Source: an uncultured Chromatiales bacterium | GTDB taxonomy: Bacteria; Bacteroidota; Ignavibacteria; SZUA-365 | Direction: 5' to 3' | Length of the DNA stretch: 64,000 nucleotides | Assembly: GCA_964448285.1 (NCBI GenBank) | Contig: CAYUWG010000006.1 | Coordinates: 13,715 to 77,714, forward strand | Part shown: positions 17,739 to 31,971 of the stretch, in pieces | Numbering within the stretch: the first letter of the stretch is position 1 | Layout of the letters: the number at the start of each line of letters is the position of its first letter | Translations under genes and position numbers: made by a program | Notes under the pieces: model-generated | Databases searched by the model: none | The model's input: only the letters and a program-made list of their open reading frames with translations | What the model was told of the DNA's origin: nothing

Positions 17739-20327
17739 ATGAGCTTTTCTAACATCATCAAGCCACGGCCGGAAGTTCTTAAAAAAGATGGAATTGATAG
17801 CGTCATCGATATCGAGAATTTGCGTTCGAAGAGGTTAAAAGCAGTCGAAAGTAGGCCCAAGGACTTTTTCGATCTCACATATCCTACGAGCGACATCAGG
17901 TTTGTCGTAGAACATCTTCATCGAAGGTTCATGGGCAAAGAGGCTGGTGCAGGAACGTACTTGCTTGAAGGGTACAAAGGGAGTGGAAAATCTCATCTTG
18001 AATTGTTCGTGTACCATTTGCTCAATAGCCCAAATGATGCGCAGGAATGGCTGCTTCGAAACGATCTTGAGTGTGCGCTTCCAAAACAGCCGGTTACGGT
18101 TATTCGGAAATTCACCGATTTCCATATCGACACACTGTGGAACTGGATTTTTGACGAGTTGGGAGATCGGAAAAATATGGATCGCCCACCTGACTTGGAC
18201 CAATTTCGAAGAACACTGGCGGGTAGGCAGTTAATCCTGATTCTCGATGAATTGGAGATGGGTATCAAGAGCATTCCGAATGAGGCGAGCCGGGCACAAA
18301 ACCTCGCATTCATTCAAATGCTTAGCGAGGAGGCACAGAGATCGGAATCAGCCACGGTGACGGTGTTCGCATCCGTGTACGATTCAAACCAGGAAGCCGG
18401 GGCAACTCTTAAACGTGTCTCTCCGGTCAACATACGTTTCATGGAGCCGCAGGACAGAAGGAGAATCATTCAGCATAGATTGTTCGCTCAATTCGAAAAG
18501 CGTGAGACGAACCGGATAGATCAAGTCATCCAATCATATGTCAACGAATGGAAAAGGCATGATATCCAGGTTGATGAACGACACATCGAAAGCATGAGGG
18601 AGTCCTTTCCCTTCAGTCCTGAACTTCTTGATACAGTTTTGTACCGTGTTCCCGCAAAAGGTGGGTTTCAGGCGAACAGAGGAGCGCTCGGTCTTCTTGG
18701 AACGGTGGTTCGGCTAACACATAACAAAACCGATCTAATCACTACTGCGCATCTTGCTATCAGCGAACCTACGGTAAGAAATAAACTCGCCGACCTTGAT
18801 CCTGCCCAGAACTTCCTCGATTGCGCTGGCAGTGATTTCAATGATCTCAAAGAACTCAGTGTGGCTGAAGAAATCATTTCCAGTGTCCTTGTCGCATCAC
18901 TCGCGCCCGCTGGCCAGACCATCGGAATAACGGAGATGGAATTGAAGCGGCAAATCATCGAACCAGGGGATGACATCAATGTCTTCTCGAGTACGCTTCA
19001 TGCACTTGAAAAACTTGGGACCTACTTTCAACACCAAGAGGACAGATACTTTTTCGACACGCATGAGAAACCGAACGCCAAAGTGGAATATCGATCCCTA
19101 CGTATCGAAAGAGGCCGAGCGATCGACTATGCTTTGACAAAATGGAAGGTTGACCTTTTCAAAGATCCGGAAGCAGTAGTCTATCGTGATAGAGTTCAGG
19201 TTAACGAGGATCTTTCAATGAGGGACGCTAAGAGGATTAGGTTCGTCCTATCACCCTTTCGATTGAATGAAGATGAGAGAAGGAATGTCTTTCACGGTCA
19301 GCAGAACCAGAACATTATCCTACTCCTCGAACCGCGAACAACGACGTTCAATGCATTGGAGCACCCTGATATTATCAAATGGGGACAAAGGGCGCTTGCC
19401 GCCCAAGAGCTTATTCCCACAGCAGAATCAGACAGACGAAAGCACTATGAGAAGATTTTGGCGGAAGACACGAGATGGATCATCGATACGATCAAGCGGA
19501 CAGGGCTGCATCTGGTCTGGATACAGGACTATGGTGTCATGGAAGAGGAGAATCTTGGAAACGCGTCGACACGTGACGATGTCCTGAAACAATTGCGCGA
19601 CACAATATTTCCTCGTCAGCGCTTCGAGGAACATATCAAGGACCATATCAAGGATTTCTTCGGACAAACGGTTCGCTCCGTCGATGCAATATACAGGAAG
19701 ACGCTTGGCTACCCGATCAGAACAGCTGATTCAACTATCCCTGATGCTATTCGGGAATTATGCAAGTCTGGTGTCCTCGGTCTTATTCATGAACGAGCGA
19801 AAGCATGCGGAACGACCTTCGACCTATCATCGATGGAACTACTCGATGCGACGATTTCAGAGCCATTTGAGGAAGATCAGCCCGCAAAGATGCCCTTCAC
19901 TGAAGGTCTGGGATTCAAGGATCATACGGATACTAAATCGACTACGATCATCGATAAGTCACCCATTTACGATTCTCCTGTGTATTCGTACGAAACGCTC
20001 CAGTTACCGTTCACAACATCAATTCACTCACTACGACAGGGAATCGCAAGTCGTCTGGAGAATCACCCACAGTCGCAGATACACAAGGCAACGTTTTACA
20101 TTCTCATGAAGCATTCGGAGGTTGAACTTTCTTCTTTATCTGCTGCGGTTCGCGGCTCTCTGTCAGGAAAAGGTAGTATTGTCGCTGACATCACTATCAG
20201 TAGGGTTGGCGTCTTTTCCAAAGCTGCGATCGAACAGATGGTTGAGCAACTCCCGTCCTTCGAAGGCGCTCAGTACGGAATGGAATGCAAGATTGAAACT
20301 GTCAGGGAGACCGTATCAAGTGAATGA
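17739..20327 (+). CDS. P-loop ATPase, DUF499/BrxC(PglY)-like defence ATPase (tentative family assignment)
   Basis: 862 aa. Walker A LLEGYKGSGKSH near residue 80 and Walker B LILILDELE near residue 170, followed by a long non-enzymatic C-terminal region as in BREX BrxC-type ATPases. First gene after the AT-rich junction. Confidence 0.65.
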   Translation: MSFSNIIKPRPEVLKKDGIDSVIDIENLRSKRLKAVESRPKDFFDLTYPTSDIRFVVEHLHRRFMGKEAGAGTYLLEGYKGSGKSHLELFVYHLLNSPNDAQEWLLRNDLECALPKQPVTVIRKFTDFHIDTLWNWIFDELGDRKNMDRPPDLDQFRRTLAGRQLILILDELEMGIKSIPNEASRAQNLAFIQMLSEEAQRSESATVTVFASVYDSNQEAGATLKRVSPVNIRFMEPQDRRRIIQHRLFAQFEKRETNRIDQVIQSYVNEWKRHDIQVDERHIESMRESFPFSPELLDTVLYRVPAKGGFQANRGALGLLGTVVRLTHNKTDLITTAHLAISEPTVRNKLADLDPAQNFLDCAGSDFNDLKELSVAEEIISSVLVASLAPAGQTIGITEMELKRQIIEPGDDINVFSSTLHALEKLGTYFQHQEDRYFFDTHEKPNAKVEYRSLRIERGRAIDYALTKWKVDLFKDPEAVVYRDRVQVNEDLSMRDAKRIRFVLSPFRLNEDERRNVFHGQQNQNIILLLEPRTTTFNALEHPDIIKWGQRALAAQELIPTAESDRRKHYEKILAEDTRWIIDTIKRTGLHLVWIQDYGVMEEENLGNASTRDDVLKQLRDTIFPRQRFEEHIKDHIKDFFGQTVRSVDAIYRKTLGYPIRTADSTIPDAIRELCKSGVLGLIHERAKACGTTFDLSSMELLDATISEPFEEDQPAKMPFTEGLGFKDHTDTKSTTIIDKSPIYDSPVYSYETLQLPFTTSIHSLRQGIASRLENHPQSQIHKATFYILMKHSEVELSSLSAAVRGSLSGKGSIVADITISRVGVFSKAAIEQMVEQLPSFEGAQYGMECKIETVRETVSSE

Positions 20328-20346
20328 TAAGCGGAATATCTTCAAC

Positions 20347-21288
20347 ATGATGCTGCAGCCGGGAGACCGACTGCCTGCAATTCAGATGTGGTTGAAGCAA
20401 TATGTGTGGTCCATTGACCGCTTTTCAGCGATGCCACCGGAAGACTATCTGAGAGACGGTGAGGCATGTGTTTTCAACGTGGAGGAGTTGATGCTTATTG
20501 CGGCGCCGAGGGTTTATGATGAGCTTTATGGTGCTTCCGAACGAGCAAAGCGAATCGAACAGCAGATCGCACCTGACGAACCAACCGCATTCGTCGTGCT
20601 TGATGGTGCCTCGATTCGGGAGATTCCCTTGTTCGAACGTTTAGCTTCCGAAACGGGCTTCCAGATAGTGGAATCAAGCTACAACATTTCAGCTCTCCCA
20701 AGTGATACTCTTTCTTTCATCGTTCAACGTATCACGAGCAAAGAAGTAGCTCCAGTCCAACTTCCAACGAGAAAGGAACTTATAGAACGAGGATGGAGCG
20801 TGTGGTATTACGACGCTGCGATTCGGAATCATGAGCTGCCGAACGATGGAAGACATCTCCTTCTCTGGTCTGCATTTCCGGACGCGACGTATGGGAATTT
20901 TGAAGCCAGGGCTGCGAGCCATTTCACAGGGATCGTCACGCTGTATGAGACAGTCTGGAAGAACGTAGTGCAGGCGATACCGAACGGATACAGGATCATT
21001 CTGACCAGCGACCACGGATATGCGTATTTCGGGACCGGGCTGGATTCGAATCATACAGTTTCGGGTCCGCGAATTCTGGAACAAGCACGTTACAAGTTTT
21101 TTTCAGACAGTGACGACTTTCCTGAACCTGCAATCGACCTCTACACACTCCCAGAAAAGCGACTCGCTGTCCTGAAAGGTCGGGTGAAGAACAGGCCACA
21201 GGGACCGATGGGGAATCGCGTGTATAGGCACGGCGGAATGTCGTTGATGGAAATGCTCACACCATGGCTCGTACTGAAAAGAATGTGA
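20347..21288 (+). CDS. PglZ-like alkaline-phosphatase-superfamily protein
   Basis: Motifs FVVLDGASIRE (metal-binding Asp strand), ILTSDHGYAYFG (DHG) and YRHGGMSLMEMLTPW (HGG.S..E..P) are the alkaline-phosphatase-superfamily core as seen in PglZ. An alternative GTG start at 20320 overlaps the upstream stop. Confidence 0.65.
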   Translation: MMLQPGDRLPAIQMWLKQYVWSIDRFSAMPPEDYLRDGEACVFNVEELMLIAAPRVYDELYGASERAKRIEQQIAPDEPTAFVVLDGASIREIPLFERLASETGFQIVESSYNISALPSDTLSFIVQRITSKEVAPVQLPTRKELIERGWSVWYYDAAIRNHELPNDGRHLLLWSAFPDATYGNFEARAASHFTGIVTLYETVWKNVVQAIPNGYRIILTSDHGYAYFGTGLDSNHTVSGPRILEQARYKFFSDSDDFPEPAIDLYTLPEKRLAVLKGRVKNRPQGPMGNRVYRHGGMSLMEMLTPWLVLKRM

Positions 21289-21316
21289 TGAAACCGATGA
21301 ACGAAAAGGAACCATC

Positions 21317-21583
21317 ATGAAAACACTCCAGCATCAGTCGAAGAAAGTAAAGATCGGAACGGTTCTCGATGAGGACATCCTCCGAAGATTGAAAGAACGA
21401 GCCGCACGTGAAGGGCGCACTATCGCCGCGCTCATCGAGGAAGCCGTCCTCAAGTACGAACAGGAGGAAGCGTTTGCGCGTGAGATGCGGCTCCGCGCTC
21501 TTGAATCAGTCTTTGCCGTCAAATTCAATATCTCGCGGGAGGACTTCGAGGCGATCATGGAAGAGGATTACTACGACCAATGA
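21317..21583 (+). CDS. Ribbon-helix-helix (CopG/VapB-like) antitoxin
   Basis: 88 aa. ILRRLKERAAREGRTIAALIEEAV is a typical RHH fold sequence. Overlaps the downstream PIN gene by 4 bp. Confidence 0.7.
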   Translation: MKTLQHQSKKVKIGTVLDEDILRRLKERAAREGRTIAALIEEAVLKYEQEEAFAREMRLRALESVFAVKFNISREDFEAIMEEDYYDQ

Positions 21584-22089
21584 ACCTGGACGACGTGAGA
21601 AATAGGGACGTGATCATTCTCGACGCGAATATCTTCGTGTATGGAGCGCTGGAGATGTCCGAGCAATGTATGCGTTTGCTCCGGCGATGCGCGGCGCGGG
21701 ATGTAACCGGTGTCGTTGGGTTGCAACAGATGGCGGAGGTCATGCACCGCCTCATGATGATCGAAGCGCGTGAAAACAAATGGACGCCGGGAGCGAATCC
21801 GGCCAAGACCCTTGCCAACCACCCGGATCGCGTGCGCTCGCTCAACAGGTACGAGCAGGCAGTCAAGGGATTCTTTGCAAGTGGCTTTCGATTTGAAACG
21901 CTCATGAAGGAGGATTTCGGGATCGCGCTCTCGTTGCAGCGGCAATTCGGGCTGATGACGAACGATGCACTTCTGGCTGCCATGGCGGAAAGACTCCGCA
22001 TCCAATCCATTGCGAGCGCGGATACGTCATTCGCGAACGTGCGAGGGATGATGCTGTATCAACCGGATGACGTTGTATCAACCGGATGA
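21580..22089 (+). CDS. PIN-domain ribonuclease toxin (VapC-like)
   Basis: 169 aa. N-terminal VIILDANIFVY (first acidic residue) and later MTNDALLAA motif typical of PIN domains. Confidence 0.75.
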   Translation: MNLDDVRNRDVIILDANIFVYGALEMSEQCMRLLRRCAARDVTGVVGLQQMAEVMHRLMMIEARENKWTPGANPAKTLANHPDRVRSLNRYEQAVKGFFASGFRFETLMKEDFGIALSLQRQFGLMTNDALLAAMAERLRIQSIASADTSFANVRGMMLYQPDDVVSTG

Positions 22090-22111
22090 TATGAAATAAG
22101 ACAGGCAGACA

Positions 22112-22531
22112 ATGAAGGAAAAAGAGGAAATATATCTTGAGGAACGAAGGATGCTGGTTCAGGCGGAGCAAGATGCTTATCAGCAGTTCGATAAAACGAT
22201 CATTACAATTGCAAGCGGAGGATTAGGACTCTCACTTCTTTTCTTGAAAGATATTCTCGACAAGGATCAAATCACTAGTCAATGGCTCCTGATTGTCTCA
22301 TGGTGTTCATTCATCCTTTCGATTCTTTCTACTCTCTTGTCATTTATGGGAAGCCAGCGCGCCTTTAGAAGACAAATAGAAATTACCGATGAATTGTATT
22401 CAAAGAATCAGACTCATGATTCTAATAACAAGCCAGCAAAAGCCACTGAGAAGTTGAACTACTTTTCGATTGGTTTCCTGATCTTAGCGATTATTCTCCT
22501 CGTCATTTTTGTTTCACTAAACTTTCAATGA
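22112..22531 (+). CDS. Hypothetical membrane protein (AT-rich cassette)
   Basis: 139 aa. Charged coiled N-terminus followed by 3 TM helices. Local GC about 38% versus about 55% in surrounding genes. Confidence 0.45.
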   Translation: MKEKEEIYLEERRMLVQAEQDAYQQFDKTIITIASGGLGLSLLFLKDILDKDQITSQWLLIVSWCSFILSILSTLLSFMGSQRAFRRQIEITDELYSKNQTHDSNNKPAKATEKLNYFSIGFLILAIILLVIFVSLNFQ

Positions 22532-22540
22532 GGTTTTATC

Positions 22541-22744
22541 ATGTCTGAAGACAAAAACGAAATAATTACAGTTGCAAATGGTAGGGTTCCATCTCTCTCG
22601 CACCCTCTTCTCAGCGATGCTAAAAAACCGCGTCTTGAGGGAGCCGTCCCTCCAAAACCTCCGGTGCCGCTGAAACCGACAACAAGCGAACCACAACCGG
22701 AGGGTGGAAGTCAGGGAAGCCCGCCGAAGGAGAAGAAGGAATGA
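22541..22744 (+). CDS. Hypothetical small Pro-rich protein
   Basis: 67 aa (PPKPPVPLKPTTSEPQPEGG). Overlaps the next ORF by 4 bp, with a GAGG-like RBS. Could be spurious. Confidence 0.3.
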   Translation: MSEDKNEIITVANGRVPSLSHPLLSDAKKPRLEGAVPPKPPVPLKPTTSEPQPEGGSQGSPPKEKKE

Positions 22745-23379
22745 CTTTGAGAAAAGGATTTGACCTCTATGAATACACAGGGATTCTCGTCCCTGGTTAC
22801 TTACTGTTGGTAGGAATAGCTCTTTTGCATCCTGAAGCGAAATCCTTCCTATTGTCTGTTAATTTCACAGTTGGCCATTTTGGGCTTTCGGTACTCCTTG
22901 CGTATTCCGCAGGGCATCTTCTACAAGCACTGGGAAACATGATCGAATATCTGTGGTGGGAACTCTATGGTGGTATGCCTACCGATTGGGTAAGAACTGG
23001 AAAGCATTTCCTCCTTGCACCAGATCAGATCGTAATGCTGAAGAACAAGATGTCAGCTATACTTGGACTTTCGGTCAAGAATGAACTGCAAGAATATTCG
23101 AAGGAGGAATGGTCCTCTATAATCCGGCAAGTATATGCGGCAATTGATGGAGATAACCGTTCAAAGCGTGTCGATATCTTCAACGGTCAATATGGCTTGA
23201 ACAGAGGTATAGGAGCTTCCTTTCTATTCCTTCTTGTTGTCACGTTGCTTTACTATGGGCTCTCCTCGTGGAGTATCCAGATTTGGCTATGTGCAGGATT
23301 CGTTGTTTCGATTTACAGGATGCATCGGTTTGGTAGGAATTATGGACACTCTCTTTTCATGTCTTTTATTATCGAATAA
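22741..23379 (+). CDS. Hypothetical polytopic membrane protein (AT-rich cassette)
   Basis: 212 aa with 4-5 TM segments. No recognisable family. Confidence 0.45.
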   Translation: MTLRKGFDLYEYTGILVPGYLLLVGIALLHPEAKSFLLSVNFTVGHFGLSVLLAYSAGHLLQALGNMIEYLWWELYGGMPTDWVRTGKHFLLAPDQIVMLKNKMSAILGLSVKNELQEYSKEEWSSIIRQVYAAIDGDNRSKRVDIFNGQYGLNRGIGASFLFLLVVTLLYYGLSSWSIQIWLCAGFVVSIYRMHRFGRNYGHSLFMSFIIE

Positions 23380-23482
23380 TAACAGTTTGTACTGAGCGTG
23401 GAAGATTTGTATAATTGCTTCTTATGTTGTATATTCATAATATGAAACAAATATTTATTACCCAAAATACAGGAGATAAGAA

Positions 23483-24424
23483 ATGAACATTCCAAAAAAG
23501 CGAACACGATTTCGTGCATATCAACTAAAGACTGAGGGGTCCTCATTTTCGTACTTTGATGGAGACGCATTTACACTTATCGAAGCGCGCTGCAATGAAC
23601 ATAATTGTTCGAATATATGTGATGAATTGGGGGAATGCGACAAGAGTAGAATTGATTCTCTTCATATTACGAGTTGGGATGAAGACCATTGTGCTTTTAA
23701 GGAGTTAGAGGAAATACTCGACACCTTCACGCCAAAAAGGATTGAATATCCTGGCTACGAACCGAAAACTGAAAATGGTAAGCATTGTTTAAGTGCAATT
23801 TATTCATACAATAAGAAAGAATGGAGATGGATAGTAAAAGTAAATCCAGAATATATTCGCGGTTTGAAGAAGGCGGAAGCGCTTGGCTATCAAGACATTT
23901 TGTACAATCCATTGGTTATCATGGAGACGTCGAACGACAATTCGACTATTAAATTCTTTCGAAAGGGATCATTTAACGTAATAAGCCTCGGTGATGTTGA
24001 GAGCCCGATGATTCGCTCGAGACTTGAAAGGCTCAGTATTTTCAATTCTGAGATAGACGTCATGATATTATCCCATCACGGCGCAGATAATGGCTTTACA
24101 ACCAAATCATTTTTAAGCAAAACAAAACCAACTGTGGCTATAGCTTCAGCTAATTACGAAAATGAATATGAACATCCAAGAAAGAGTATTCGAAACGATC
24201 TGTACGAATTGAACATACCAATCTTTACGTCTAAAACGGGAGATGTGATAATCGAATCCACAGGAGATCACACAGGCTCATATAGAGTCACAAACTTAAA
24301 GAGTGATTCGACGGATATATCGTCGCAAAGGGATTTTAAATCAAAGAAGGCATCCAAATTGACTCATAATGCGGATTCGATTCGAAATCATTATAATCCC
24401 AAGAGACCGTTTTATAGGTTCTGA
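23483..24424 (+). CDS. MBL-fold metallo-hydrolase, ComEC-C-terminal-like (possible nuclease)
   Basis: 313 aa. DVMILSHHGADNGFTTKSFLSKTKPTVAIASANYENEYEHPRKSIRNDLYELNIPIFTSKTGDVIIE parallels the ComEC/MBL pattern V.HHGS......FL..V.P..A.IS.G..N.YGHP. AT-rich. Confidence 0.5.
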   Translation: MNIPKKRTRFRAYQLKTEGSSFSYFDGDAFTLIEARCNEHNCSNICDELGECDKSRIDSLHITSWDEDHCAFKELEEILDTFTPKRIEYPGYEPKTENGKHCLSAIYSYNKKEWRWIVKVNPEYIRGLKKAEALGYQDILYNPLVIMETSNDNSTIKFFRKGSFNVISLGDVESPMIRSRLERLSIFNSEIDVMILSHHGADNGFTTKSFLSKTKPTVAIASANYENEYEHPRKSIRNDLYELNIPIFTSKTGDVIIESTGDHTGSYRVTNLKSDSTDISSQRDFKSKKASKLTHNADSIRNHYNPKRPFYRF

Positions 24425-24435
24425 CTACTTACCCC

Positions 24436-24642
24436 ATGATCCGCGCCATCGAAGAGTATTTCCCCATCGTGGACATCAACCGCCTTGCGGTGCCGGAGCG
24501 AAATGCGTTCAAACCGATCTATCAGATGCACAAGGGGTTTGCGCGGCGTTCGGTTATGGTTTTTCGTACGATCCTGTTGGGCGCGATGAAACCTGTCAAC
24601 CCAGATATTATGGAGGAGTTCTACGGGACGGAGAGACGATGA
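24436..24642 (+). pseudogene. Decayed in-frame duplicate of the first ~65 codons of the DUF1156 methyltransferase gene
   Basis: MIRAIEEYFPIVDINRLAVPERNAFKPIYQMHKGFARR... versus MTRAIEEYFPIVDINRLAVPERNAFKPIYQMHKWFARR... at 25609. Roughly 85% nucleotide identity over ~190 bp (my manual alignment). Terminates at an ATGA overlap with the next gene. Confidence 0.7.
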
Positions 24643-24983
24643 AACGAAGCACATCCCAAAGAAAATCGCAACTCGAGCGCCTACCTCAATCGGTTCGTGA
24701 TATCTTCTGGGAATACGAAAAAGGGTCCATCTCATGGCAGAAGGACCGCGACCTCATCATCAAGAAAATCTTACATCACGGGTCGTGGGACGCCCTGTGT
24801 TGGATGAGGTCGGTCATCGATGACGAATCGCTTCGAACGTGGTTGATCGATCATGATGGTGCGGGTCTCGATGCGAAGCGATTGCGCTACTGGCAACTCA
24901 TCCTCAACCTGCCGGTGTCCAACGTGAACAAGTGGATTCAAACATACCGGGATAATCCCTGGAGCCGGAGGATGACGGGATGA
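24639..24983 (+). CDS. Small protein encoded upstream of and overlapping the AbiEii-type toxin gene; putative cognate antitoxin/regulator
   Basis: 114 aa (MKRSTSQRKSQLERLPQSVRDIFWEYEKGS...). Its start overlaps the stop of the methylase fragment and its stop overlaps the AbiEii start (ATGA). Family not recognised; shorter than classical AbiEi. Confidence 0.45.
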   Translation: MKRSTSQRKSQLERLPQSVRDIFWEYEKGSISWQKDRDLIIKKILHHGSWDALCWMRSVIDDESLRTWLIDHDGAGLDAKRLRYWQLILNLPVSNVNKWIQTYRDNPWSRRMTG

Positions 24984-25612
24984 AGATCCACGAGGAGGTA
25001 TTGTCGCCGCGGCAAAAGAACCTTGCCCGTCGCATCGGGCCGGCACTTTCCCGACAGGGTTTTTATCTCGCAGGTGGGACGGCATTGGCTCTCATGGTGG
25101 GACATCGGCATTCTGTTGACTTCGACTACTTCATCGACGATCCGATGAACGATCCTCAATCCGTCATCGAGACCTTGCGCAAGGTCGGTTGTAATCCTAT
25201 CGTGGAGATTCTGGAGAAAGGCACTGTTCACGTGACGTGGTCGAGCGTCAGGATGTCTTTCATTACGTACCGCTATCCGATGCTCCAGCCTTTCGTTGAA
25301 TGGAAAGAAGGTGGATGTCGGCTTGCTTCGCTGGACGATATCGCATGCATGAAGCTTTCCGCTCTTGCGCAACGTGGTTCGAAGAAAGACTTCATCGATG
25401 CATTCGCGCTGATCCGGAAACACAAACCGCTTTCGGATCTCCTGCAACTCTATCAAAAAAAATTCGATGTCTCTGAGATTGTTCATGTGCTCTATGGATT
25501 GAGCTATTTCGACGACGCAGACAAAGAGCGTTCACCCAGGATGCTGTGGGATGTCTCATGGAAAGAGATAAAGAAAAAGCTCACAGAACACGTAAGGAAC
25601 CTCTCCCCATGA
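24980..25612 (+). CDS. Nucleotidyltransferase of the AbiEii/AbiGii toxin family
   Basis: 210 aa. FYLAGGTALALMVGHRHSVDFDYF is the family's characteristic GG.AL..HR.S.D.D motif region. Stop overlaps the methylase start (ATGA). Confidence 0.7.
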   Translation: MKIHEEVLSPRQKNLARRIGPALSRQGFYLAGGTALALMVGHRHSVDFDYFIDDPMNDPQSVIETLRKVGCNPIVEILEKGTVHVTWSSVRMSFITYRYPMLQPFVEWKEGGCRLASLDDIACMKLSALAQRGSKKDFIDAFALIRKHKPLSDLLQLYQKKFDVSEIVHVLYGLSYFDDADKERSPRMLWDVSWKEIKKKLTEHVRNLSP

Positions 25613-28600
25613 CCCGCGCCATTGAAGAATACTTCCCCATCGTGGACATCAACCGCCTCGCGGTGCCGGAGCGCAATGCGTTCAAGCCGATCTACCAGAT
25701 GCACAAGTGGTTTGCGCGACGTTCGTCGTCGGTGTTTCGCGCGATACTGCTTGCGGCAATGAAGCCCGCCGGTATGGACATCATGAAGGAATTTTACCTG
25801 GATCACACGAACGATCCCGACACGAATGGGAAGGTGATACTCGACCCGTTCATGGGCGGTGGCACCACCGTCGTGGAGGCACTACGGCTTGGCTGCAACG
25901 TGATCGGCATCGACCTCAATCCCGTCGCGTGGTTCATCGTGAAGACGGAAGTGGAACCGGTGGACATCGACAGCTTGAAAGCCTCGTTCGAACGGCTCGC
26001 GAATCGCACAGTGGACTGGTCGGGCAAACCGCTGAAGGAAACACTGCTCGATCTGTACAAAACCGTGTGCCCGGGTTGCGGCGGTGAAGCGGATATCATC
26101 TACACGTTCTGGGTAAAATCCGCGCCCTGCACGACGGGAACTTGTAAAACGCAGACGCCGCTGTTTTCTGACTTCATCATCGCACAGAAGAAACCGTCCA
26201 TTCGGTACTCCCCTGACTGCACCTGTCCTTCCTGTGCGAAGGAATTCGACTGGGAGCGCGAACCCGCTTCGCTGATCGCTGAAGAAAAACTGATGGTGTC
26301 TGCGACGGCTTATTCCGCCGGTGATGGAAGGCAGAATGCACGATGGGCCTTTTCGGCTGACAAGAAAGTGACCTGTCCGTGGTGTAGGATGGATGTTAGG
26401 CCGAAACCCAAATCGCTCAAACTCAAACGCAAGAAGATTCCGCTCAATGTGTTGCTCTGCCCGCACTGCGAGGAAGTCTGGCAGTACCGTGGTGAGTTGC
26501 CGGATTCCGTTGCATGCCCGACGTGCGCACATGAATACGATCCAACGAAAGGCAACATCCCCGGCACGGGGAAGTTCATCTGTCGCGGCACGTGCAACGG
26601 CAACGTCGATACCGTGATTACCGCCATTCGCACGCTTCCTGAAGAAAGACTCTTGCCCATCCGCCTGTATGCGATGGAAGGCTACTGCCCCCGCTGTGCG
26701 AAAAAACCGGGCGGGAAAGAAACTCCGATGGTTGTTAACGAACCGATGTTCGAATATCAACCCTCTCCCGGTCACTCCGTGACACCCCTCTCCCGAACCG
26801 GGAGAGGGGACGGGGGTGAGGGTCTTCTCTGGAAAAACTCCGGCAAGTTCTTCAAGCGCGTTTCACCCGTTGACCTTGCCCGGTACCTGGAAGCAAGTTC
26901 TATCTGGCAGAGAGAGAAAAAGAATCTACCGCACCCGGTTTCCGAAATACCAGTCGGTGAAAAAACGAAGTCTGGCTTACATTCACATCACTACCGCTAT
27001 TGGTGGCAGATGTTCAATGACAGACAGTTGTTGGCGCTGAGCACGCTACTGAAAGGGATTGGGGAGGAGGGTGAGCAGGTAGCAAAGGAGATGTTATTAA
27101 CAGCGTTTTTCAGTGCGCTTGAGACAAGTAATTTGTTTACTAGATATCACTCTACGAGGTTTTTGTCCGCTGGAGTTTTTGCCCGTCATGATTACCAACC
27201 GAAGGTGACAATTTGCGAAAACAACGTCTGGGGTACGCTATATGGAAATCAAACATATAACAATACGTTTGAGAAGGTTATTGATGGAAAATCTTTCGCA
27301 CTTAATCCTACTGATCTAAAATATTGTGATGAAAAATATAAACCGATAGCTTCCCATGATTCACTTTCCAACCTCGAGCTGGATGAAAATGTCCTATTAA
27401 AAGCTAAATCATCAACCAATATGGATGAGATAGAAAACTCTTCCATAGAATTTGTTATTACAGATCCACCATACGCCGGCAATGTCAACTACGCGGAGTT
27501 GTCGGACTTCTTCTATGTCTGGCTTCGTCTCCTGCTGAAGGAGAAGTATCCGCAGTTTCTTCCGGAGTATGTGCCAAAGGCGGAGGAGATTATCGAGAAC
27601 AGAACGCGGGGAAAATCATCGAAGGACTTCAAGGAGGGACTCCGCGCCGTCTTCCGCGAAGGGCATCGCGTCTTGAAAGACGACGGATTGCTTGTATTCA
27701 CCTTCCATCACGCTGAAGGCTCTGCCTGGGAGGCACTGCTCGAATCGGTCTGTGAAGCGGGCTATTACATCGAAGCCGTGTATCCCATACACGGGGAGGC
27801 GGAGAACTCACTGCACCTGATGAACAACGAAGCCATCTCCTACGATCTCATACACGTCTGCAAGAAAGCAACCGCCCAGCAGACCTGGGCGAAGCGCTCC
27901 TGGGCAGGCGTACGGCACGATATCAGGAAGAGGGCACGCGAAGAAGCGAGGCTCATCGAGTCCGGCAGGTACGGCAACGAGCCACTCCCTGCTGCTGATA
28001 TCAACATTCTCCTCATCGGAAAATGCCTCGAGCTGTACAGCAAGCACTACAACCGCATCGTGGATCATGAAGACAAGCCGATACCTCTGCATCAGGCGTT
28101 GGAAGAAATCAAGATGCTCGTCGATCAGATCGTCGCGCGCGAGAAGCCGCTCCCGCCGGAACTCGAAGAGGGCGTCGATCCCGTCTCCTACGTCTATCTC
28201 ACTGCTCTTGCCGGTCAACGGGAAATCCAGAGCGATCACGTCAGCAAGCAGACGCGCGGCATCATCGAAACGTCCGAGTTGAAGGAACATGGCCTGCTCA
28301 TCAAAGGTCGCGCGAAGCGCGGACGTACGTTCGAGATCAAACAACCGGTTGAGCGCCTCAACGACCTGAAGAAGAAGTTCTACGACGACGGGGTGTTGAC
28401 GCAACTCCCGCTGTTCGGTGAGAACGGTTCACCGCTGCCCAAGGGCCTGCTCTTCGTGGATTGCGTGCAACTGCTGTTGGGTCTCGCGGAGAACGGTGAG
28501 AACGTGCTACCGTGGCTCGACCGTCTTCGTGGTTTGCGTCCGCAACTTCGCGCCGCGCTTTCATATCTGCATGACCGGAATATCTTCACCGTTCCCTCCA

Positions 28601-28647
28601 GGAAAATCCTCTCCCTCATCGACGAGCGTACGCTCTTCAATACGTGA
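25609..28647 (+). CDS. DUF1156-type adenine-specific DNA methyltransferase with multiple Zn-ribbon inserts
   Basis: 1013 aa from ATG 25609; the track's upstream extension is unlikely. N-terminus MTRAIEEYFPIVDINRL. Motif I DPFMGGGTTVVEA lies before motif IV FVITDPPYAGNV. Five Cys-x-x-Cys pairs lie between them (CPGCGG, CPSC, CPWC, CPHC, CPTC). Confidence 0.8.
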   Translation: MTRAIEEYFPIVDINRLAVPERNAFKPIYQMHKWFARRSSSVFRAILLAAMKPAGMDIMKEFYLDHTNDPDTNGKVILDPFMGGGTTVVEALRLGCNVIGIDLNPVAWFIVKTEVEPVDIDSLKASFERLANRTVDWSGKPLKETLLDLYKTVCPGCGGEADIIYTFWVKSAPCTTGTCKTQTPLFSDFIIAQKKPSIRYSPDCTCPSCAKEFDWEREPASLIAEEKLMVSATAYSAGDGRQNARWAFSADKKVTCPWCRMDVRPKPKSLKLKRKKIPLNVLLCPHCEEVWQYRGELPDSVACPTCAHEYDPTKGNIPGTGKFICRGTCNGNVDTVITAIRTLPEERLLPIRLYAMEGYCPRCAKKPGGKETPMVVNEPMFEYQPSPGHSVTPLSRTGRGDGGEGLLWKNSGKFFKRVSPVDLARYLEASSIWQREKKNLPHPVSEIPVGEKTKSGLHSHHYRYWWQMFNDRQLLALSTLLKGIGEEGEQVAKEMLLTAFFSALETSNLFTRYHSTRFLSAGVFARHDYQPKVTICENNVWGTLYGNQTYNNTFEKVIDGKSFALNPTDLKYCDEKYKPIASHDSLSNLELDENVLLKAKSSTNMDEIENSSIEFVITDPPYAGNVNYAELSDFFYVWLRLLLKEKYPQFLPEYVPKAEEIIENRTRGKSSKDFKEGLRAVFREGHRVLKDDGLLVFTFHHAEGSAWEALLESVCEAGYYIEAVYPIHGEAENSLHLMNNEAISYDLIHVCKKATAQQTWAKRSWAGVRHDIRKRAREEARLIESGRYGNEPLPAADINILLIGKCLELYSKHYNRIVDHEDKPIPLHQALEEIKMLVDQIVAREKPLPPELEEGVDPVSYVYLTALAGQREIQSDHVSKQTRGIIETSELKEHGLLIKGRAKRGRTFEIKQPVERLNDLKKKFYDDGVLTQLPLFGENGSPLPKGLLFVDCVQLLLGLAENGENVLPWLDRLRGLRPQLRAALSYLHDRNIFTVPSRKILSLIDERTLFNT

Positions 28648-28656
28648 GGCAATGCC

Positions 28657-29079
28657 ATGTCCTACATACTCATAGAACACAACCATCTCTCACCGCCCCG
28701 CTTGGCAGGTCAGGGTTTTAAGGCAAACACGCACCGTATCGGATTTCTGGACTTCCTCCGTGAATTGGACAGGGAAGAATTTCCATTCCACGAAAGCAGT
28801 CACCTGCTTGTTGTTGGCCTTGAGGACGTACTGCTTTTTTCGCGTCCCCACATGCACTCCATTGCGTTAGACATCCGAAATCGATTGAAGCGTGTCGCGA
28901 ATGATTTTGAACGATGTCCTCATGTTCAAATCGTTTTCATGAAAGGGCATCTCGTCGCAGGCGCAGAGCTTCGGTTGGAAATGAAACCTGAGCCATTGCC
29001 TCTGCACCTCATTTTCGGAACGCCACAACGGATGGAAAACGGCTTCGTCTATTACTTGGCGCCGTTCAACCTGAGTTAA
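28657..29079 (+). CDS. Small conserved-looking protein between methylase and helicase (DUF3780-like position; unassigned)
   Basis: 140-aa ORF 10 bp after the methylase stop, same strand. No motif recognised. Confidence 0.45.
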   Translation: MSYILIEHNHLSPPRLAGQGFKANTHRIGFLDFLRELDREEFPFHESSHLLVVGLEDVLLFSRPHMHSIALDIRNRLKRVANDFERCPHVQIVFMKGHLVAGAELRLEMKPEPLPLHLIFGTPQRMENGFVYYLAPFNLS

Positions 29080-29115
29080 GTGGAATCAGAGTAGGAAAAG
29101 GATACAAGGACAGAT

Positions 29116-31971
29116 ATGAATACATCGGCGTTTACCGACAGAACATCGGAAAAGGGCACACCCTATAGTCCCGGCCAACGTGTCCGAGTAGCCGGACGAG
29201 AAGATCTCGGAATAGGCGAAGTGCTACGTGTGAGTGATATCTACGGCGTGTATCAGGCGGACATTATCTTTGAAACCAGTGGATTACGACGATTGGAAAG
29301 CTTCCCTGTCGAGCGTCTCGAGCATGCCCCCGACTTATGGGAGCGATTGAAGAAGGGAATGTTCGACGATCCGAATGACGTACTCTTCAAACAACTCGCG
29401 TTTCAGTTTCCATTGCAAAACAAGGGAGGTCAACTCTCGAACAGTCGAACGCAATTGTTACCTCATCAGATTCTGCTGACTCGGGACGTGGTTGCATCAC
29501 ACCGTCGTCGCTATCTCATCGCTGATGAAGTGGGGCTGGGGAAAACGATCGAGATCGGCATGATCCTTAGGGAACTGGAGTCCCGGCGTGAAGCGTCACG
29601 CATGTTGATCATTGCGCCGGCAGGCCTGATCAAAAACTGGCAACAGGAATTACGGGATGCATTTCGACTGCATTTCGAAATTCTTGGGATCGACTTCATG
29701 GACCACGGCTCAACAACGTGGGAAATGAAAAGCAAGGTGATCGTTTCCATCGATACGATCAAGCGCAGCCCGAGGCTCGATCGTTTGCTTGCGGGTCCTC
29801 GTTGGGACGTGATCGTTTTCGATGAAGCCCACCATTTGAGTCGCAATCGGTATGGAAAGAAAATCGTCCCAACTCAAAACTATCGTCTTGCCGAATCCCT
29901 TCGTTCTCACACGAGGGATTTCCTTCTCCTTTCTGCAACACCCCATCAGGGAAACACCTATCAGTTCTGGTCGCTCATCCAACTCTTGAACGATTCGCTG
30001 TTCGATTCCGAAGAGGCCATGATCCAGCATCGAGGGCTTTTGAATCAGGTCATGATTCGTCGAACGAAACGGGAGGTAACGGATCGTCACGGGAATCCTA
30101 TTTTCATGCGTCGTCAGGTTCATACAGAACGCTTTCTGCAATCCGCACGGGAGCGAATGTTCTATGAGAAGCTTACGGAATACCTCAAGGAGGGGTACTC
30201 CGTTGCCCGGATCGGTGAAACCAAAGTGACGACAGAGGAACGCGCGATCGGGTTTGTCATGACGACGTTTCAGAAGATCATGTCCTCCAGCATTCGTGCT
30301 ATCCGGCAGGCATTGCGTCGAAGATTGCTCGTATTGCTCATCCGCCATTATATGGAATTAGAGCAGAAGAGATCGAAGCGTGGGCCTGACGAGACTATAG
30401 ATCGGAAGATTCTGGAAGTGCAGGATGAAATGCGCATGATTACTTCACATATCCTTGGCATTGATAATATCGCTGCCAATACAGGCGACATCGATGCCTT
30501 CATAGCGCAGACCAGACAAAAGGTGAGTCGCAAATTTCTCGTCGAAGAAAGCACACTGTGGTCCCTTGACGCTGACGAAGAGGCAGAGGAAGAACTCTAT
30601 GCCACGGTGAATATTCCCGATGAGATTCGGAAAGTCCGTTCGCTCATCTCCGTTATTCCTGACGGTCGGGATAGGAAATTTGAAACGCTCATCAACGCAA
30701 TCGAATCTATCCGGCAGGATAACCCATCCGAGAAGTTCGTGATCTTTACGCAGTACATCGAGACCTTGAAATTTCTCGAGGAGGAGTTGGGGGCGCTTTA
30801 TGGAAAACAAAAGATTGCGATCATTCGGGGTGGTCCACTGGAAAACAAGATTGAAGCTGTAGAAAGGTTCTGGGATGAACGAGGTGCACAATTCCTTATC
30901 TGCACATCGGCTGGTGGAGAAGGGATCAATCTTCAGATCGGAAGGATCCTTTTCAATTACGATTTGCCCTGGAATCCTATGGCGGTTGAACAACGCATAG
31001 GGCGCATTCACCGCTTCGGGCAGAAGGAAACGGCACAGATATATAATCTCATTGCCGAGGATACTGTAGAAGAACATATCTATGACCTTCTGAACAGGAA
31101 GTTGAGGGAAATTGCGTCACAAATCGGTAAAGTAGATTCATCCACAGGTGAGCCGCGTGAAGATTTCCGCAATGAAATACTGGGATTTCTCGGTTCCAGT
31201 CCCAGCTATCTCGATCTGTACAAGCGTGCTATCTTGGACAGAGATTACCGACGAACGGAACACGAGATTGAAGAAGCGATACGGAAAGCGCGTGAAGCAA
31301 GTGAAGCGCTTTCATCCTTCACTCAAGATCTCGATTCATTCGATTTGCGCGATTATCTCGCGATGGAGGGATCGTTTACACTTGATCACCTAATGGAATT
31401 CATTTTTCAAGCAGTACTCCGATTGGAAGGCGCTGTTCTTCCCCGTGATGAGTTTCATTCCATACAGACCCCTCCCAGTCTTTTACGGTACCCAAGTGTT
31501 TCCGCGAAGTATGACACTGTCACTTTCGATCGTGACGCGGCTATGAGAAAAAAGAGTGTCGAATTCCTTGGTCTCGGACATCCTTTCGTAGATGCAGTGG
31601 TAGAGCATTTTCAACAGTCTGCATTTCCAGGCGACGTGAGCTGTATCTCGCGTTTGAGTCATGAACAACCCTATACCGTCTTCCTTACCTTGATCACGAT
31701 CGGTTTGGAAGATGGTACTGTCCACCAGGAATTGAATCTCATGCGGGTAACACAATCGGGTGATGCACAGGTGTTGCCTGATCACTGGCTCTTTCAGCGG
31801 TTCGAACAGCGCGATTCCTTGTTCGAACCAGTGGAGAGTCTTTTTGATTTCATGTCAATCAGGATGTCGTACGAATCAGCAATCGGCGCTATTCTGACTC
31901 AAATGAAAGCATCAATGATCAATCCTATCAGCGCACGGTTGCGATTGCTTGGAGTATTGAACGTCGCTTGA
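29116..31971 (+). CDS. SNF2/RapA-family helicase (DISARM DrmD-like position)
   Basis: 951 aa. Motifs I LIADEVGLGKTIE, II VIVFDEAHHL, III LLLSATPHQG, V ICTSAGGEGINLQ and VI YDLPWNPMAVEQRIGRIHRFGQ. Confidence 0.88.
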   Translation: MNTSAFTDRTSEKGTPYSPGQRVRVAGREDLGIGEVLRVSDIYGVYQADIIFETSGLRRLESFPVERLEHAPDLWERLKKGMFDDPNDVLFKQLAFQFPLQNKGGQLSNSRTQLLPHQILLTRDVVASHRRRYLIADEVGLGKTIEIGMILRELESRREASRMLIIAPAGLIKNWQQELRDAFRLHFEILGIDFMDHGSTTWEMKSKVIVSIDTIKRSPRLDRLLAGPRWDVIVFDEAHHLSRNRYGKKIVPTQNYRLAESLRSHTRDFLLLSATPHQGNTYQFWSLIQLLNDSLFDSEEAMIQHRGLLNQVMIRRTKREVTDRHGNPIFMRRQVHTERFLQSARERMFYEKLTEYLKEGYSVARIGETKVTTEERAIGFVMTTFQKIMSSSIRAIRQALRRRLLVLLIRHYMELEQKRSKRGPDETIDRKILEVQDEMRMITSHILGIDNIAANTGDIDAFIAQTRQKVSRKFLVEESTLWSLDADEEAEEELYATVNIPDEIRKVRSLISVIPDGRDRKFETLINAIESIRQDNPSEKFVIFTQYIETLKFLEEELGALYGKQKIAIIRGGPLENKIEAVERFWDERGAQFLICTSAGGEGINLQIGRILFNYDLPWNPMAVEQRIGRIHRFGQKETAQIYNLIAEDTVEEHIYDLLNRKLREIASQIGKVDSSTGEPREDFRNEILGFLGSSPSYLDLYKRAILDRDYRRTEHEIEEAIRKAREASEALSSFTQDLDSFDLRDYLAMEGSFTLDHLMEFIFQAVLRLEGAVLPRDEFHSIQTPPSLLRYPSVSAKYDTVTFDRDAAMRKKSVEFLGLGHPFVDAVVEHFQQSAFPGDVSCISRLSHEQPYTVFLTLITIGLEDGTVHQELNLMRVTQSGDAQVLPDHWLFQRFEQRDSLFEPVESLFDFMSIRMSYESAIGAILTQMKASMINPISARLRLLGVLNVA

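What the first reader, a model, noticed from the sequence alone, without database searches (positions are those of the whole stretch)
24436..25612. AbiEii-type toxin module wedged into the 5' end of the methylase gene, leaving a decayed in-frame copy of the methylase N-terminus
Seen in sequence: 24436-24642 encodes MIRAIEEYFPIVDINRLAVPERNAFKPIYQMHKGFARR..., a diverged copy (~85% nucleotide identity, my manual alignment) of the first ~65 codons of the DUF1156 methylase, which restarts at 25609 with MTRAIEEYFPIVDINRLAVPERNAFKPIYQMHKWFARR.... Between the two copies are a 114-aa ORF and a 210-aa AbiEii-family nucleotidyltransferase, chained by three ATGA stop/start overlaps (24639, 24980, 25609). 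Inference: a two-gene toxin/abortive-infection cassette was captured by recombination at the methylase 5' end and became translationally coupled into the methylase operon. This suggests functional coupling, such as a toxin guarding the modification gene, or addiction stabilising the island.
Basis: partly seen in the sequence, partly recalled or inferred. Interest (0 to 1): 0.7.

Follow-up and report, generated by a model that had tools for sequence, protein, structure and literature searches.

The report
Toxin module beside a methylase-gene scar
A two-gene toxin/partner module sits in the interchangeable "accessory gene" position of a BREX-related phage-defence operon, and the short methylase-like stub in front of it is a leftover from a different version of the methylase gene, so this is a recombination scar in a known kind of defence island rather than a new mechanism.

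Summary
Window 24432-24624 repeats 25605-25797: 193 nt, 80% identical rather than ~85%, 53/63 residues. All three ATGA stop/start overlaps exist.

The 210-aa protein is an intact AbiEii/MenT-type nucleotidyltransferase. The 114-aa protein is DUF6922, its near-constant upstream partner in 78 of 80 genomes.

The host operon is a DUF499-centred BREX-related ("Type-3 BR"/Hma-like) system: ATPase, PglZ-like, RHH-PIN, methylase, small protein, SNF2 helicase. The position just upstream of the methylase is a cargo slot. Of 72 related loci, 19 carry other modules there (TIR, Schlafen, Fic, MNT-HepT, DUF3800 and others). The window's closest relatives carry DUF6922-AbiEii in the same place without any stub.

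The stub is not a decayed copy of the present methylase start. It is as far from it (dS about 1, dN/dS 0.11) as from orthologues in other genomes. Its differences are mostly synonymous, and it carries three changes at family-invariant residues.

It is best read as the scar of recombination between two diverged alleles of the system. The direction of the event is unresolved, and any guarding or addiction role is untested. This is a new member of a known kind, of modest interest.

The parts
17739..20327 (+). DUF499-family AAA+ ATPase, first core gene of the BREX-related (Hma-like) system
   Evidence: PADLOC HmaC E 2.7e-19 and DUF499 E 3e-17. NCBIfam DUF499_antiphage E 3.6e-21, below its cut-off. 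Present in the same order in nearly all of 80 related loci.
20347..21288 (+). 313-aa PglZ-like protein, second core gene
   Evidence: Weak PADLOC PglZ hits, E 1.3e-4. The homologue in L174 has a precomputed weak Pfam PglZ hit. Conserved directly after DUF499 in the related loci.
21317..22089 (+). RHH (88 aa) plus PIN (169 aa) pair, an optional toxin-antitoxin-like module in front of the cargo slot
   Evidence: Precomputed weak Pfam RHH_1 and PIN hits. Present in roughly half of the related loci, directly upstream of the methylase or of the cargo.
22046..22083 (+). 19-nt tandem duplication at the PIN 3' end that changes the last PIN codons; a possible left-hand scar
   Evidence: the repeat finder family D13. 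Sequence compared with sister loci.
22112..24424 (+). Low-GC four-gene block (139, 67 and 212 aa, then a 313-aa metallo-beta-lactamase-fold protein); foreign cargo absent from all relatives
   Evidence: GC3 is 0.38-0.43 here against 0.50-0.71 in the system genes, with a matching GC dip. No tblastn hit in about 160 related loci. Homologues of the MBL-fold protein lie in other defence islands. Weak PADLOC PDC-M48B and LmuA hits.
24432..24642 (+). Relic of the 5' end of a different allele of the methylase gene. Homology runs 24432-24624, the ORF runs 24436-24642, and its stop overlaps the DUF6922 start.
   Evidence: Searches show the repeat. Searches give dS about 0.99 and dN/dS 0.11, and show it is equidistant from the native start and from L015/L094. 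W34G, S40V and A45T fall at family-invariant positions. Its protein cluster has 2 members.
24639..24983 (+). DUF6922 protein (114 aa), inferred antitoxin or regulator of the adjacent toxin
   Evidence: Pfam DUF6922 E 1.9e-7. A homologue lies directly upstream of the AbiEii homologue in 78 of 80 genome loci, at a distance of -4 to +53 nt. 366 representative clusters in the large protein library. AF2 model is all-alpha with pLDDT 88.5 and has no solved structural relative.
24980..25612 (+). AbiEii/DUF1814 (MenT-like) nucleotidyltransferase toxin, 210 aa
   Evidence: Pfam PF08843, 57 bits. Invariant G32-G33-T34, R43-x-S45-x-D47-x-D49, D120, K125, R132, D137 and D140 are all present. AF2 pLDDT 95. 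Foldseek matches: JHP933 7.7e-7, MenT1 1.2e-5, MenT4 1.8e-5.
25609..28647 (+). DUF1156 N6-adenine DNA methyltransferase (1012 aa), core gene
   Evidence: Pfam N6_N4_Mtase and DUF1156. PADLOC HmaB E 3.7e-39. At least 2280 homologues, the closest non-self hit 67% identical.
28657..29079 (+). Conserved 140-aa protein (DUF8076 in the precomputed annotation), core gene
   Evidence: Precomputed Pfam DUF8076, though not recovered by hmmscan here. Conserved after the methylase in related loci.
29116..31971 (+). SNF2-family helicase (951 aa) with no detectable nuclease domain, core gene
   Evidence: Pfam SNF2-rel_dom and Helicase_C. PADLOC BrxHI/BrxHII E 3.3e-105 and HmaA E 3.9e-96.

Best explanation
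What it is. The locus is a DUF499-centred BREX-related defence operon of the kind called 'Type-3 BR' or Hma-like. Its gene order is DUF499 ATPase, PglZ-like protein, RHH-PIN, methylase, small protein, SNF2 helicase. The position between PIN (or PglZ) and the methylase start is a cargo slot that holds different accessory effector modules in different genomes.

In this genome the slot holds two cargoes separated by a scar:
- a low-GC four-gene block;
- a 63-codon relic of the start of another allele of the methylase;
- the DUF6922-AbiEii module, joined by ATGA overlaps to the relic upstream and to the intact methylase downstream.

How it arose (inferred). One recombination event joined two diverged versions of the system, one carrying each cargo. 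One junction was homologous. The other was illegitimate and fell at about codon 63 of one methylase allele and within 15 nt upstream of the DUF6922 start. Two routes give this structure. Either DUF6922-AbiEii plus a methylase start entered a block-methylase locus, anchored on the conserved methylase 5' end (Campbell-type or homology-facilitated illegitimate recombination). Or the block plus a methylase start entered a PIN-DUF6922-AbiEii-methylase locus. The truncated start has since begun to decay.

How the module works (inferred from family knowledge). AbiEii is a MenT-like nucleotidyltransferase that would block translation by adding nucleotides to tRNA acceptor ends. DUF6922, a small all-helical partner, keeps it off. 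This may work, as with MenA1 and MenA3, by inducing auto-phosphorylation of the conserved serine in the R-x-S-x-D-x-D active-site loop (S45 here). Co-transcription and coupled translation with the methylase tie its dosage to the defence operon. It probably acts as a backup abortive-infection effector, as proposed for other cargo in BREX-type loci.
For: Architecture and slot:
- 80 loci found with the methylase keep the order DUF499, PglZ-like, optional RHH-PIN, methylase, DUF8076, SNF2.
- 19 of 72 loci with a usable upstream anchor have an insert of at least 500 bp just before the methylase.
- The inserts encode ThsB-like TIR, DUF3800, Schlafen AlbA_2, Fic, MNT-HepT, ORF6N, SDH protease and DUF433-DUF5615, and DUF5677 and an AAA_15/21 ATPase.
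- 8 of the 19 inserts end in a 4-nt overlap with the methylase start.
- Embedded accessory effectors in BREX and BR loci have been described (PMC12839542).

Same cargo without the scar:
- L015, L011 and L166/L167 are the closest relatives for every core gene.
- They have PIN, DUF6922, AbiEii and methylase tightly packed. PIN and DUF6922 are 3-15 nt apart in L015 and L166/L167 and about 85 nt apart in L011.

Slot turnover:
- L011's nearest core relative, L090, carries TIR cargo.
- L015's relative L086 carries none.
- The closest methylase hit, P0002, has an ATPase in the slot.

Relic from a foreign allele:
- Identity to the native start is 79.9% over 189 nt, against 79.9% to L015 and 79.4% to L094. 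The native start is closer to L015 and L086 (82.5%) than to the relic.
- dS 0.99, dN 0.11, dN/dS 0.11.
- The 38 differences split 8/7/23 by codon position. The synonymous excess has P = 1.4e-6 under neutral decay.
- Decay signs: W34G, S40V and A45T at invariant sites, and about 0.06 extra dN compared with orthologue pairs.

Module:
- DUF6922 pairs with AbiEii in 78 of 80 genomes.
- The nucleotidyltransferase motifs and fold are intact.
- MenT mechanism and serine/threonine auto-phosphorylation: PMC7450476, PMC10435456 (titles and abstracts) and PMC11375011.
Against: - No relative of either parental allele was found, so neither the two-allele event nor its direction has been observed directly.
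- The extreme 5' end is shared by the relic and the native start: CCCC before the ATG plus the rare Thr2 codon (in assembly L001), about 22 nt in all. The sister loci do not share it. This fits a common origin or a short gene-conversion tract better than two independent alleles.
- The codon statistics rest on only 63 codons.
- The first 114 nt are unusually similar within a subset of family members, so similarity there is a poor clock.
- The AbiEii proteins of the window, L011 and L015 are not each other's nearest relatives. Shared ancestry of the cargo is therefore not shown.
- Toxicity, neutralisation by DUF6922 and any link to phage defence are untested.
- The window's AbiEii carries the rare substitutions W50Y and E96T.
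Confidence: 0.68

Rival explanations
1. One reading: the cassette was wedged into the resident methylase gene with a duplication of that gene's own first ~65 codons, and the upstream copy then decayed to its present divergence.
For: The direct-repeat geometry fits, with period 1173 nt equal to cassette plus repeat. The relic and the native start share CCCC-ATG-ACC, with the rare Thr2 seen in assembly L001. The relic has lost three family-invariant residues.
Against: The differences are mostly synonymous (8/7/23 by codon position, dN/dS 0.11, P = 1.4e-6 under neutral decay). dS of about 1 equals the distance to orthologues in other genomes, and the relic is no closer to the native start than to L015 or L094. 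The sister loci hold the same cargo with no relic.
Confidence: 0.1
2. The 68-codon ORF is kept by selection. It could be a translated leader that passes ribosomes from the upstream block to DUF6922, AbiEii and the methylase, or a free DUF1156 N-terminal peptide with a regulatory role.
For: The frame is open for all 68 codons and ends exactly on the DUF6922 start. The first 38 codons carry only two amino-acid changes (dN/dS 0.05). The ORF is unbroken in all assemblies.
Against: No such ORF exists in any related locus, and its protein cluster has 2 members. W34G, S40V and A45T hit invariant positions. An open frame of this length after few lineage-specific changes is not unlikely by chance (inference). 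A GGAG motif lies about 7-10 nt before the DUF6922 ATG, so DUF6922 may not need coupling. One of the 5 SNPs among assemblies is a non-synonymous change in this ORF.
Confidence: 0.1
3. Assembly chimera of two strains, one with block-methylase and one with DUF6922-AbiEii-methylase.
For: Metagenome assemblies can join strains at repeats. One assembly breaks inside DUF6922 at 24788-24811.
Against: The same junctions occur in contigs from four runs and in a 94.7-kb NCBI contig, with 0-5 mismatches. The repeat is only 80% identical with a 26-nt maximum identical run, so it is a poor substrate for mis-assembly. A chimera would not create a truncated copy that ends at codon 63.
Confidence: 0.02

Closest known systems
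Auxiliary or backup effectors embedded in BREX and DUF499-centred BREX-related (BR) loci (Rakesh & Krishnan, NAR 2026, PMC12839542); the same system is called Hma (HmaA/B/C) in PADLOC
   Same: The core set matches: DUF499 ATPase, N6-methylase and SNF2 helicase, plus a standalone PglZ-like gene as in 'Type-3 BR'. Accessory toxin-type genes lie inside the operon, flanked by core genes, and include MNT-HEPN, PIN and Schlafen.
   Different: That survey concentrates on nucleases and does not mention AbiEii (0 occurrences). Three points are additions from this work: a single preferred slot directly upstream of the methylase, frequent stop/start overlap with the methylase, and a relic methylase start as a footprint of turnover.
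AbiE (AbiEi/AbiEii) abortive-infection toxin-antitoxin system of lactococci and Streptococcus agalactiae
   Same: The toxin belongs to Pfam AbiEii/DUF1814 and keeps the G-G-T...D-x-D and K...R...D..D motifs. It is a two-gene operon with the partner gene upstream and overlapping.
   Different: The partner is not AbiEi (COG5340, winged helix plus C-terminal domain). It is a 114-aa all-helical DUF6922 protein with no solved relative. The toxin is shorter, at about 210 aa.
MenAT systems of Mycobacterium tuberculosis (MenT1, MenT3, MenT4)
   Same: These are among the best structural matches (8an5, 8an4 and 6y56; E 1e-5 to 1e-4). The active-site loop R-x-S-x-D aligns by pattern with MenT3 R76-S78-D80. 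The small helical partner recalls the 7.4-kDa MenA1 (PMC11375011).
   Different: Sequence identity is only 14-16%. No profile hit to any PDB sequence was found. tRNA modification and auto-phosphorylation are inferred here, not shown.
Toxin or anticodon-nuclease genes embedded in type I restriction-modification operons (for example prrC in the EcoprrI locus); from my own knowledge
   Same: A suicide-type effector is placed between genes of a modification/restriction operon and co-expressed with them.
   Different: PrrC is held in check by the R-M proteins themselves. Here the toxin has its own dedicated partner gene and occurs mostly as a free-standing pair elsewhere.

Membership tests
AbiEii / DUF1814 nucleotidyltransferase toxins | Match to Pfam PF08843 above the gathering score | tested here: met
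   57 bits against a cut-off of 22.5, residues 17-202. Eight PADLOC AbiEii models also hit.
AbiEii / DUF1814 nucleotidyltransferase toxins | Pol-beta-type core: G-[GS] loop followed by D-x-D, and the C-terminal K...R...D..D motif | tested here: met
   G32, G33, T34, D47, D49, D120, K125, R132, D137 and D140 are invariant or nearly so in 199 homologues, and all are present in the window protein. E96, the possible h[DE]h position, is T here, but this position is E in only 166 of 199.
AbiEii / DUF1814 nucleotidyltransferase toxins | MenT/JHP933-like fold | tested here: met
   AF2 pLDDT 95. Foldseek: JHP933 7.7e-7, MenT1 1.2e-5, MenT4 1.8e-5, TM about 0.55-0.6.
AbiEii / DUF1814 nucleotidyltransferase toxins | Growth inhibition and nucleotidyl transfer (to tRNA, or GTP binding) | not testable with these tools
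   Needs expression and biochemical assays.
AbiE-type (COG5340-DUF1814) toxin-antitoxin pair | Upstream AbiEi antitoxin with a winged-helix DNA-binding domain | tested here: not met
   The upstream gene matches only DUF6922 in Pfam and nothing in NCBIfam or PADLOC. It has no structural match.
Toxin-antitoxin module in general | Conserved adjacent gene pair that moves as a unit | tested here: met
   78 of 80 loci hold both genes, -4 to +53 nt apart. The neighbours are otherwise unrelated.
Toxin-antitoxin module in general | The partner neutralises the toxin | not testable with these tools
   Co-expression rescue test needed.
DUF499-centred BREX-related system, Type 3 (Hma-like) | DUF499 ATPase, N6-methylase and SNF2 helicase in one operon | tested here: met
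   PADLOC HmaC, HmaB and HmaA/BrxH hits. The order is conserved in 80 loci.
DUF499-centred BREX-related system, Type 3 (Hma-like) | Helicase without a fused nuclease, plus a standalone PglZ gene | tested here: inconclusive
   No nuclease domain was found in Pfam. PglZ support is only weak: PADLOC E 1.3e-4 and a precomputed weak Pfam hit in a homologue. Active-site residues were not checked.
DUF499-centred BREX-related system, Type 3 (Hma-like) | Inactive STAND (iSTAND) component | not tested
   The conserved 140-aa DUF8076 protein is a candidate, but its fold was not examined.
In-situ duplication (the repeat made from the resident gene itself) | Copies closer to each other than to orthologues, with extra differences spread evenly over codon positions | tested here: not met
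   the relic is equidistant from orthologues, dS is about 1, and differences split 8/7/23 by codon position.

The most novel reading that the evidence does not exclude
The position just upstream of the methylase in these BREX-related operons works as a true cassette-exchange site. In this reading the very conserved first ~40 codons of the methylase gene act as the homologous anchor through which foreign effector modules are captured (Campbell-type or homology-facilitated illegitimate recombination). The relic in this window would be the first direct footprint of such a capture. In addition, DUF6922 would be a new class of small antitoxin that silences a MenT-like toxin by inducing auto-phosphorylation of the conserved serine S45.
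Probability: 0.2. Interest if true: 0.55.

Novelty: new member of a known kind. Interest (0 to 1): 0.35.

Why it matters
The locus shows how accessory suicide-type effectors are swapped in and out of BREX-like defence operons. They occupy one preferred slot, are often joined to the methylase start codon, and in this case a scar preserves both parental methylase starts.

It also pairs an uncharacterised family, DUF6922 (no papers found), with a large subfamily of short AbiEii/MenT-like toxins. That gives a clear candidate antitoxin to test.

Neither point changes current understanding of defence islands.

Tried and rejected
Searches for more relics or for the donor:
- I looked for further relic copies, or for a conserved small gene, in 80 genome loci found with AbiEii and 80 metagenome loci found with the methylase. 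There were none.
- I looked for a donor in which the MBL-fold gene sits directly before a DUF1156 methylase. Its homologues instead lie in a type I R-M operon, next to RloB/AAA_21, and in a CBASS-like island.
- I looked up the relic's best protein-level matches. The family N-terminus is about 90% conserved, so protein identity does not discriminate.
- I searched the assemblies for cassette-free variants through the MBL-fold protein. There were none.

Tests of shared ancestry and mosaicism:
- I tested whether the AbiEii proteins of the window, L011 and L015 group together. They do not at this resolution (ranks 29 and 130 of 198), so shared ancestry of the cargo is left open.
- I tested whether the left and right halves of the operon have different nearest relatives. 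Both halves are closest to L015 and L166.
- I tested for family-wide synonymous conservation of methylase codons 3-38 as a possible recombination anchor. The mean is not elevated (0.44 against 0.35-0.45). There is only a 10-fold excess of outlier pairs, and those pairs are not independent.

Annotation of DUF6922 and regulatory signals:
- Promoter and terminator scans were at chance level, and the window has no tRNA genes.
Full report
**1. The observation**

- Window 24436-24642 is a 68-codon ORF, MIRAIEEYFPIVDINRLAVPERNAFKPIYQMHKGFARR...GTERR*.
- Window 24639-24983 encodes 114 aa.
- Window 24980-25612 encodes 210 aa.
- Window 25609-28647 encodes a 1012-aa protein that starts MTRAIEEYFPIVDINRLAVPERNAFKPIYQMHKWFARR.

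Each junction is an ATGA stop/start overlap. The repeat finder gives one long direct repeat, 24432-24624 against 25605-25797: 193 nt, ungapped, 80% identical, 1173 nt apart. Identity is 91% in the first 114 nt and 63% in the next 75. The longest identical run is 26 nt. The whole arrangement recurs, with 0-5 mismatches, in contigs from four sequencing runs, so it is not an assembly artefact.

**2. The genes**

- The 210-aa protein matches Pfam AbiEii (57 bits against a cut-off of 22.5). In an alignment of 199 homologues it keeps every strictly conserved residue: G32-G33-T34, R43-x-S45-x-D47-x-D49, D120, K125, R132, D137 and D140. It has two rare substitutions, W50Y and E96T.
- Its AF2 model (pLDDT 95) matches JHP933, MenT1 and MenT4 (E 7.7e-7 to 1.8e-5).
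- The 114-aa protein is Pfam DUF6922, a family with 366 representative clusters. Its model is all-helical (pLDDT 88.5) and has no solved relative. No paper mentions the family.
- In 78 of 80 genome loci found with the AbiEii profile, a DUF6922 homologue lies immediately upstream, -4 to +53 nt away.
- The other neighbours are unrelated housekeeping genes. DUF1156 methylases are the commonest downstream family, at 3 of 70.
- This is a conserved, mobile, two-gene toxin/partner module. That DUF6922 is the antitoxin is an inference from the pairing.

**3. The surrounding system**

The operon from 17739 to 31971 contains:
- a DUF499 ATPase (PADLOC HmaC);
- a 313-aa PglZ-like protein;
- an RHH-PIN pair;
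- the region in question;
- the DUF1156 methylase (HmaB);
- a 140-aa protein;
- an SNF2 helicase (BrxH/HmaA-like) with no nuclease domain.

This matches the 'Type-3 BREX-related' systems defined around DUF499 ATPases. The same paper notes that accessory or backup effectors such as HEPN-MNT, PIN and Schlafen are embedded in BREX and BR loci (PMC12839542). It does not mention AbiEii.

**4. A cargo slot**

A scan with a methylase profile returned 80 metagenome loci with the same gene order. In 72 loci with an identifiable upstream anchor, the methylase usually follows PIN or PglZ within 2-130 nt. In 19 of them there is an insert of 0.5-2.1 kb at exactly this point.

The inserts encode:
- ThsB-like TIR (L090, L134), DUF3800 (L093, L101), Schlafen AlbA_2 (L100, L137, L147) and Fic (L103, L110);
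- MNT-HepT (L130), ORF6N (L132), an SDH protease (L156) and DUF433-DUF5615 (L157);
- unknowns;
- two further cases, DUF5677 (L174) and an AAA_15/21 ATPase in the locus of the closest methylase homologue (L175).

Eight of the 19 inserts end in a 4-nt overlap with the methylase ATG. DUF6922-AbiEii occupies this slot in L011, L015 and L166/L167, and it lies inside more distant DUF1156 systems in L020 and L042.

**5. What is special to the window**

L015, L166/L167 and L011 are the nearest relatives for every core gene: DUF499 47-53%, methylase 65-68%, SNF2 69-73%. All have PIN, DUF6922, AbiEii and methylase tightly packed. PIN and DUF6922 are 3-15 nt apart in L015 and L166/L167 and about 85 nt apart in L011. 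None has a methylase stub.

Relative to them, the window has an extra 2.55 kb between the PIN stop (22089) and the DUF6922 start (24639). This consists of a four-gene block with GC3 of 0.38-0.43, then the stub with GC3 of 0.71, which is like the rest of the system. The block has no counterpart in any related locus. Homologues of its MBL-fold protein occur in other defence islands.

Slot content turns over faster than the core genes diverge. L011's closest core relative, L090, carries TIR cargo, and L015's relative L086 carries none.

**6. Origin of the stub**

The family N-terminus is about 90% conserved at protein level, so the 53/63 match to the native start is not specific. Many homologues score the same.

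At nucleotide level:
- The stub is 79.9% identical to the native start, 79.9% to L015 and 79.4% to L094.
- The native start is closer to L015 and L086 (82.5%) than to the stub.
- Nei-Gojobori estimates for stub against native are dS 0.99, dN 0.11 and dN/dS 0.11. Native against orthologues gives dS of at least 0.96, saturated in one comparison, and dN/dS 0.04-0.09.
- The 38 differences fall 8/7/23 on codon positions 1/2/3. The synonymous excess has P = 1.4e-6 against neutral decay of one copy.

Most of the divergence therefore accumulated while both sequences were working methylase genes, that is, in separate lineages. After truncation the stub gained about 0.06 extra non-synonymous change per site. 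This includes W34G, S40V and A45T at positions invariant in 40 homologues. It is a decaying relic of a different allele, not a decayed copy of the present gene.

**7. The most likely event**

A single recombination between two diverged versions of the system, one carrying each cargo, gives the observed order: cargo 1, truncated methylase start, cargo 2, intact methylase. One junction is homologous. The other is illegitimate and lies between methylase codon 63 and the short spacer before DUF6922, which carries a GGAG motif.

Two routes are possible:
- A segment made of spacer, DUF6922, AbiEii and a methylase start enters a block-methylase locus, anchored on the conserved methylase 5' end.
- The block plus a methylase start enters a PIN-DUF6922-AbiEii-methylase locus.

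I could not decide between them, because no close relative of either parent is in the collections. A 19-nt tandem duplication at the PIN 3' end (22046-22083) may be a second scar.

One detail is unexplained. The stub and the native start share CCCC-ATG-ACC (Thr2 in assembly L001, Ile in the window), which the sister loci lack. A short gene-conversion tract between the repeats would account for it.

**8. How the module probably works**

This section is inference from family knowledge. MenT toxins add nucleotides to tRNA acceptor stems and block translation (PMC7450476, PMC10435456; titles and abstracts). Their antitoxins, including the 7.4-kDa MenA1, act by inducing auto-phosphorylation of an active-site serine or threonine next to the D-x-D motif. 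In MenT3 this is S78, in an R76-x-S78-x-D80 loop (PMC11375011).

The window protein and all 199 homologues have R43-x-S45-x-D47-x-D49, so the same control by DUF6922 is plausible. Because the slot holds many unrelated suicide-type effectors, the module is best seen as one interchangeable backup or abortive-infection cargo, co-expressed with the methylase. It is less likely to be a specific guard of the methylase gene. None of this has been tested.

**9. Verdict**

The locus is a new member of a known kind: accessory toxin modules embedded in BREX-like operons. It offers two modest additions. One is the DUF6922/short-AbiEii pairing. The other is a preserved recombination scar that documents turnover at a preferred slot in front of the methylase gene.

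Noticed in passing
window 22046-22083: A 19-nt tandem duplication (GGATGATGCTGTATCAACC / GGATGACGTTGTATCAACC) at the PIN gene 3' end. It changes the last codons to ...LYQPDDVVSTG*, where the sister loci suggest ...LYQPDDMK*. It lies 28 nt before the low-GC block and may be a recombination scar.
   Followed up: partly
window 22112-24424: Four-gene low-GC block: 139 aa, 67 aa, a 212-aa membrane-like protein with a weak Csx27 hit, and a 313-aa MBL-fold protein with weak PADLOC PDC-M48B and LmuA hits. It is absent from all related loci. Homologues of the MBL-fold protein sit inside a type I R-M operon (L168) and beside an E1/E2/JAB-patatin set (L171).
   Followed up: partly
window ~27000-27600 (methylase codons ~530-570): GC drops to about 40%. 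Amino-acid identity falls to 0.21-0.32 in every pairwise comparison, even between L015 and L166, which exceed 0.8 elsewhere. This looks like a swapped target-recognition segment.
   Followed up: no
L011 5585-5668 and 6650-6887: In this Ignavibacteriota MAG the DUF6922-AbiEii pair is flanked on both sides by related ~70-nt repeat units (...ACAGATACTCACAGATCAGTGTAAATCGATTTTTTCAGT...), with three copies between AbiEii and the methylase. They could be genome-wide intergenic repeats or cassette boundaries.
   Followed up: no
L112 6822-10444, L113 11081-12958, L166 12242-12499: There are further variable positions in the operon. Inserts of 3.6 and 1.9 kb lie between the methylase and the DUF8076 gene, and a 23S-rRNA-IVP-family gene lies between DUF8076 and the helicase.
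   Followed up: no
window 25609-25722 and the same region of related loci: Within a subset of loci (window, relic, L015, L166, L094, L090) the first 38 methylase codons share 69-79% identical codons at same-residue sites, against 30-60% in the rest of the gene. 33 of 3390 pairs show this at p<1e-3 where 3.4 are expected, though the pairs are not independent. The family-wide mean is not elevated.
   Followed up: partly
window 24440 and 24660: There are polymorphisms among assemblies. Position 24440 is T or C (relic codon 2 Ile or Thr, the Thr form matching the native methylase). Position 24660 is A or C (synonymous, in DUF6922).
   Followed up: yes
window 24980-25612: The window's AbiEii has Y50, where 193 of 199 homologues have W, and T96, where 166 of 199 have E. 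All strictly invariant residues are kept.
   Followed up: yes
window 57563-61789: A 1408-aa protein with a Por_Secre_tail (type IX secretion) sorting domain. This suggests a host from the Bacteroidota/Ignavibacteriota group, in line with the nearest relatives of the defence operon.
   Followed up: no
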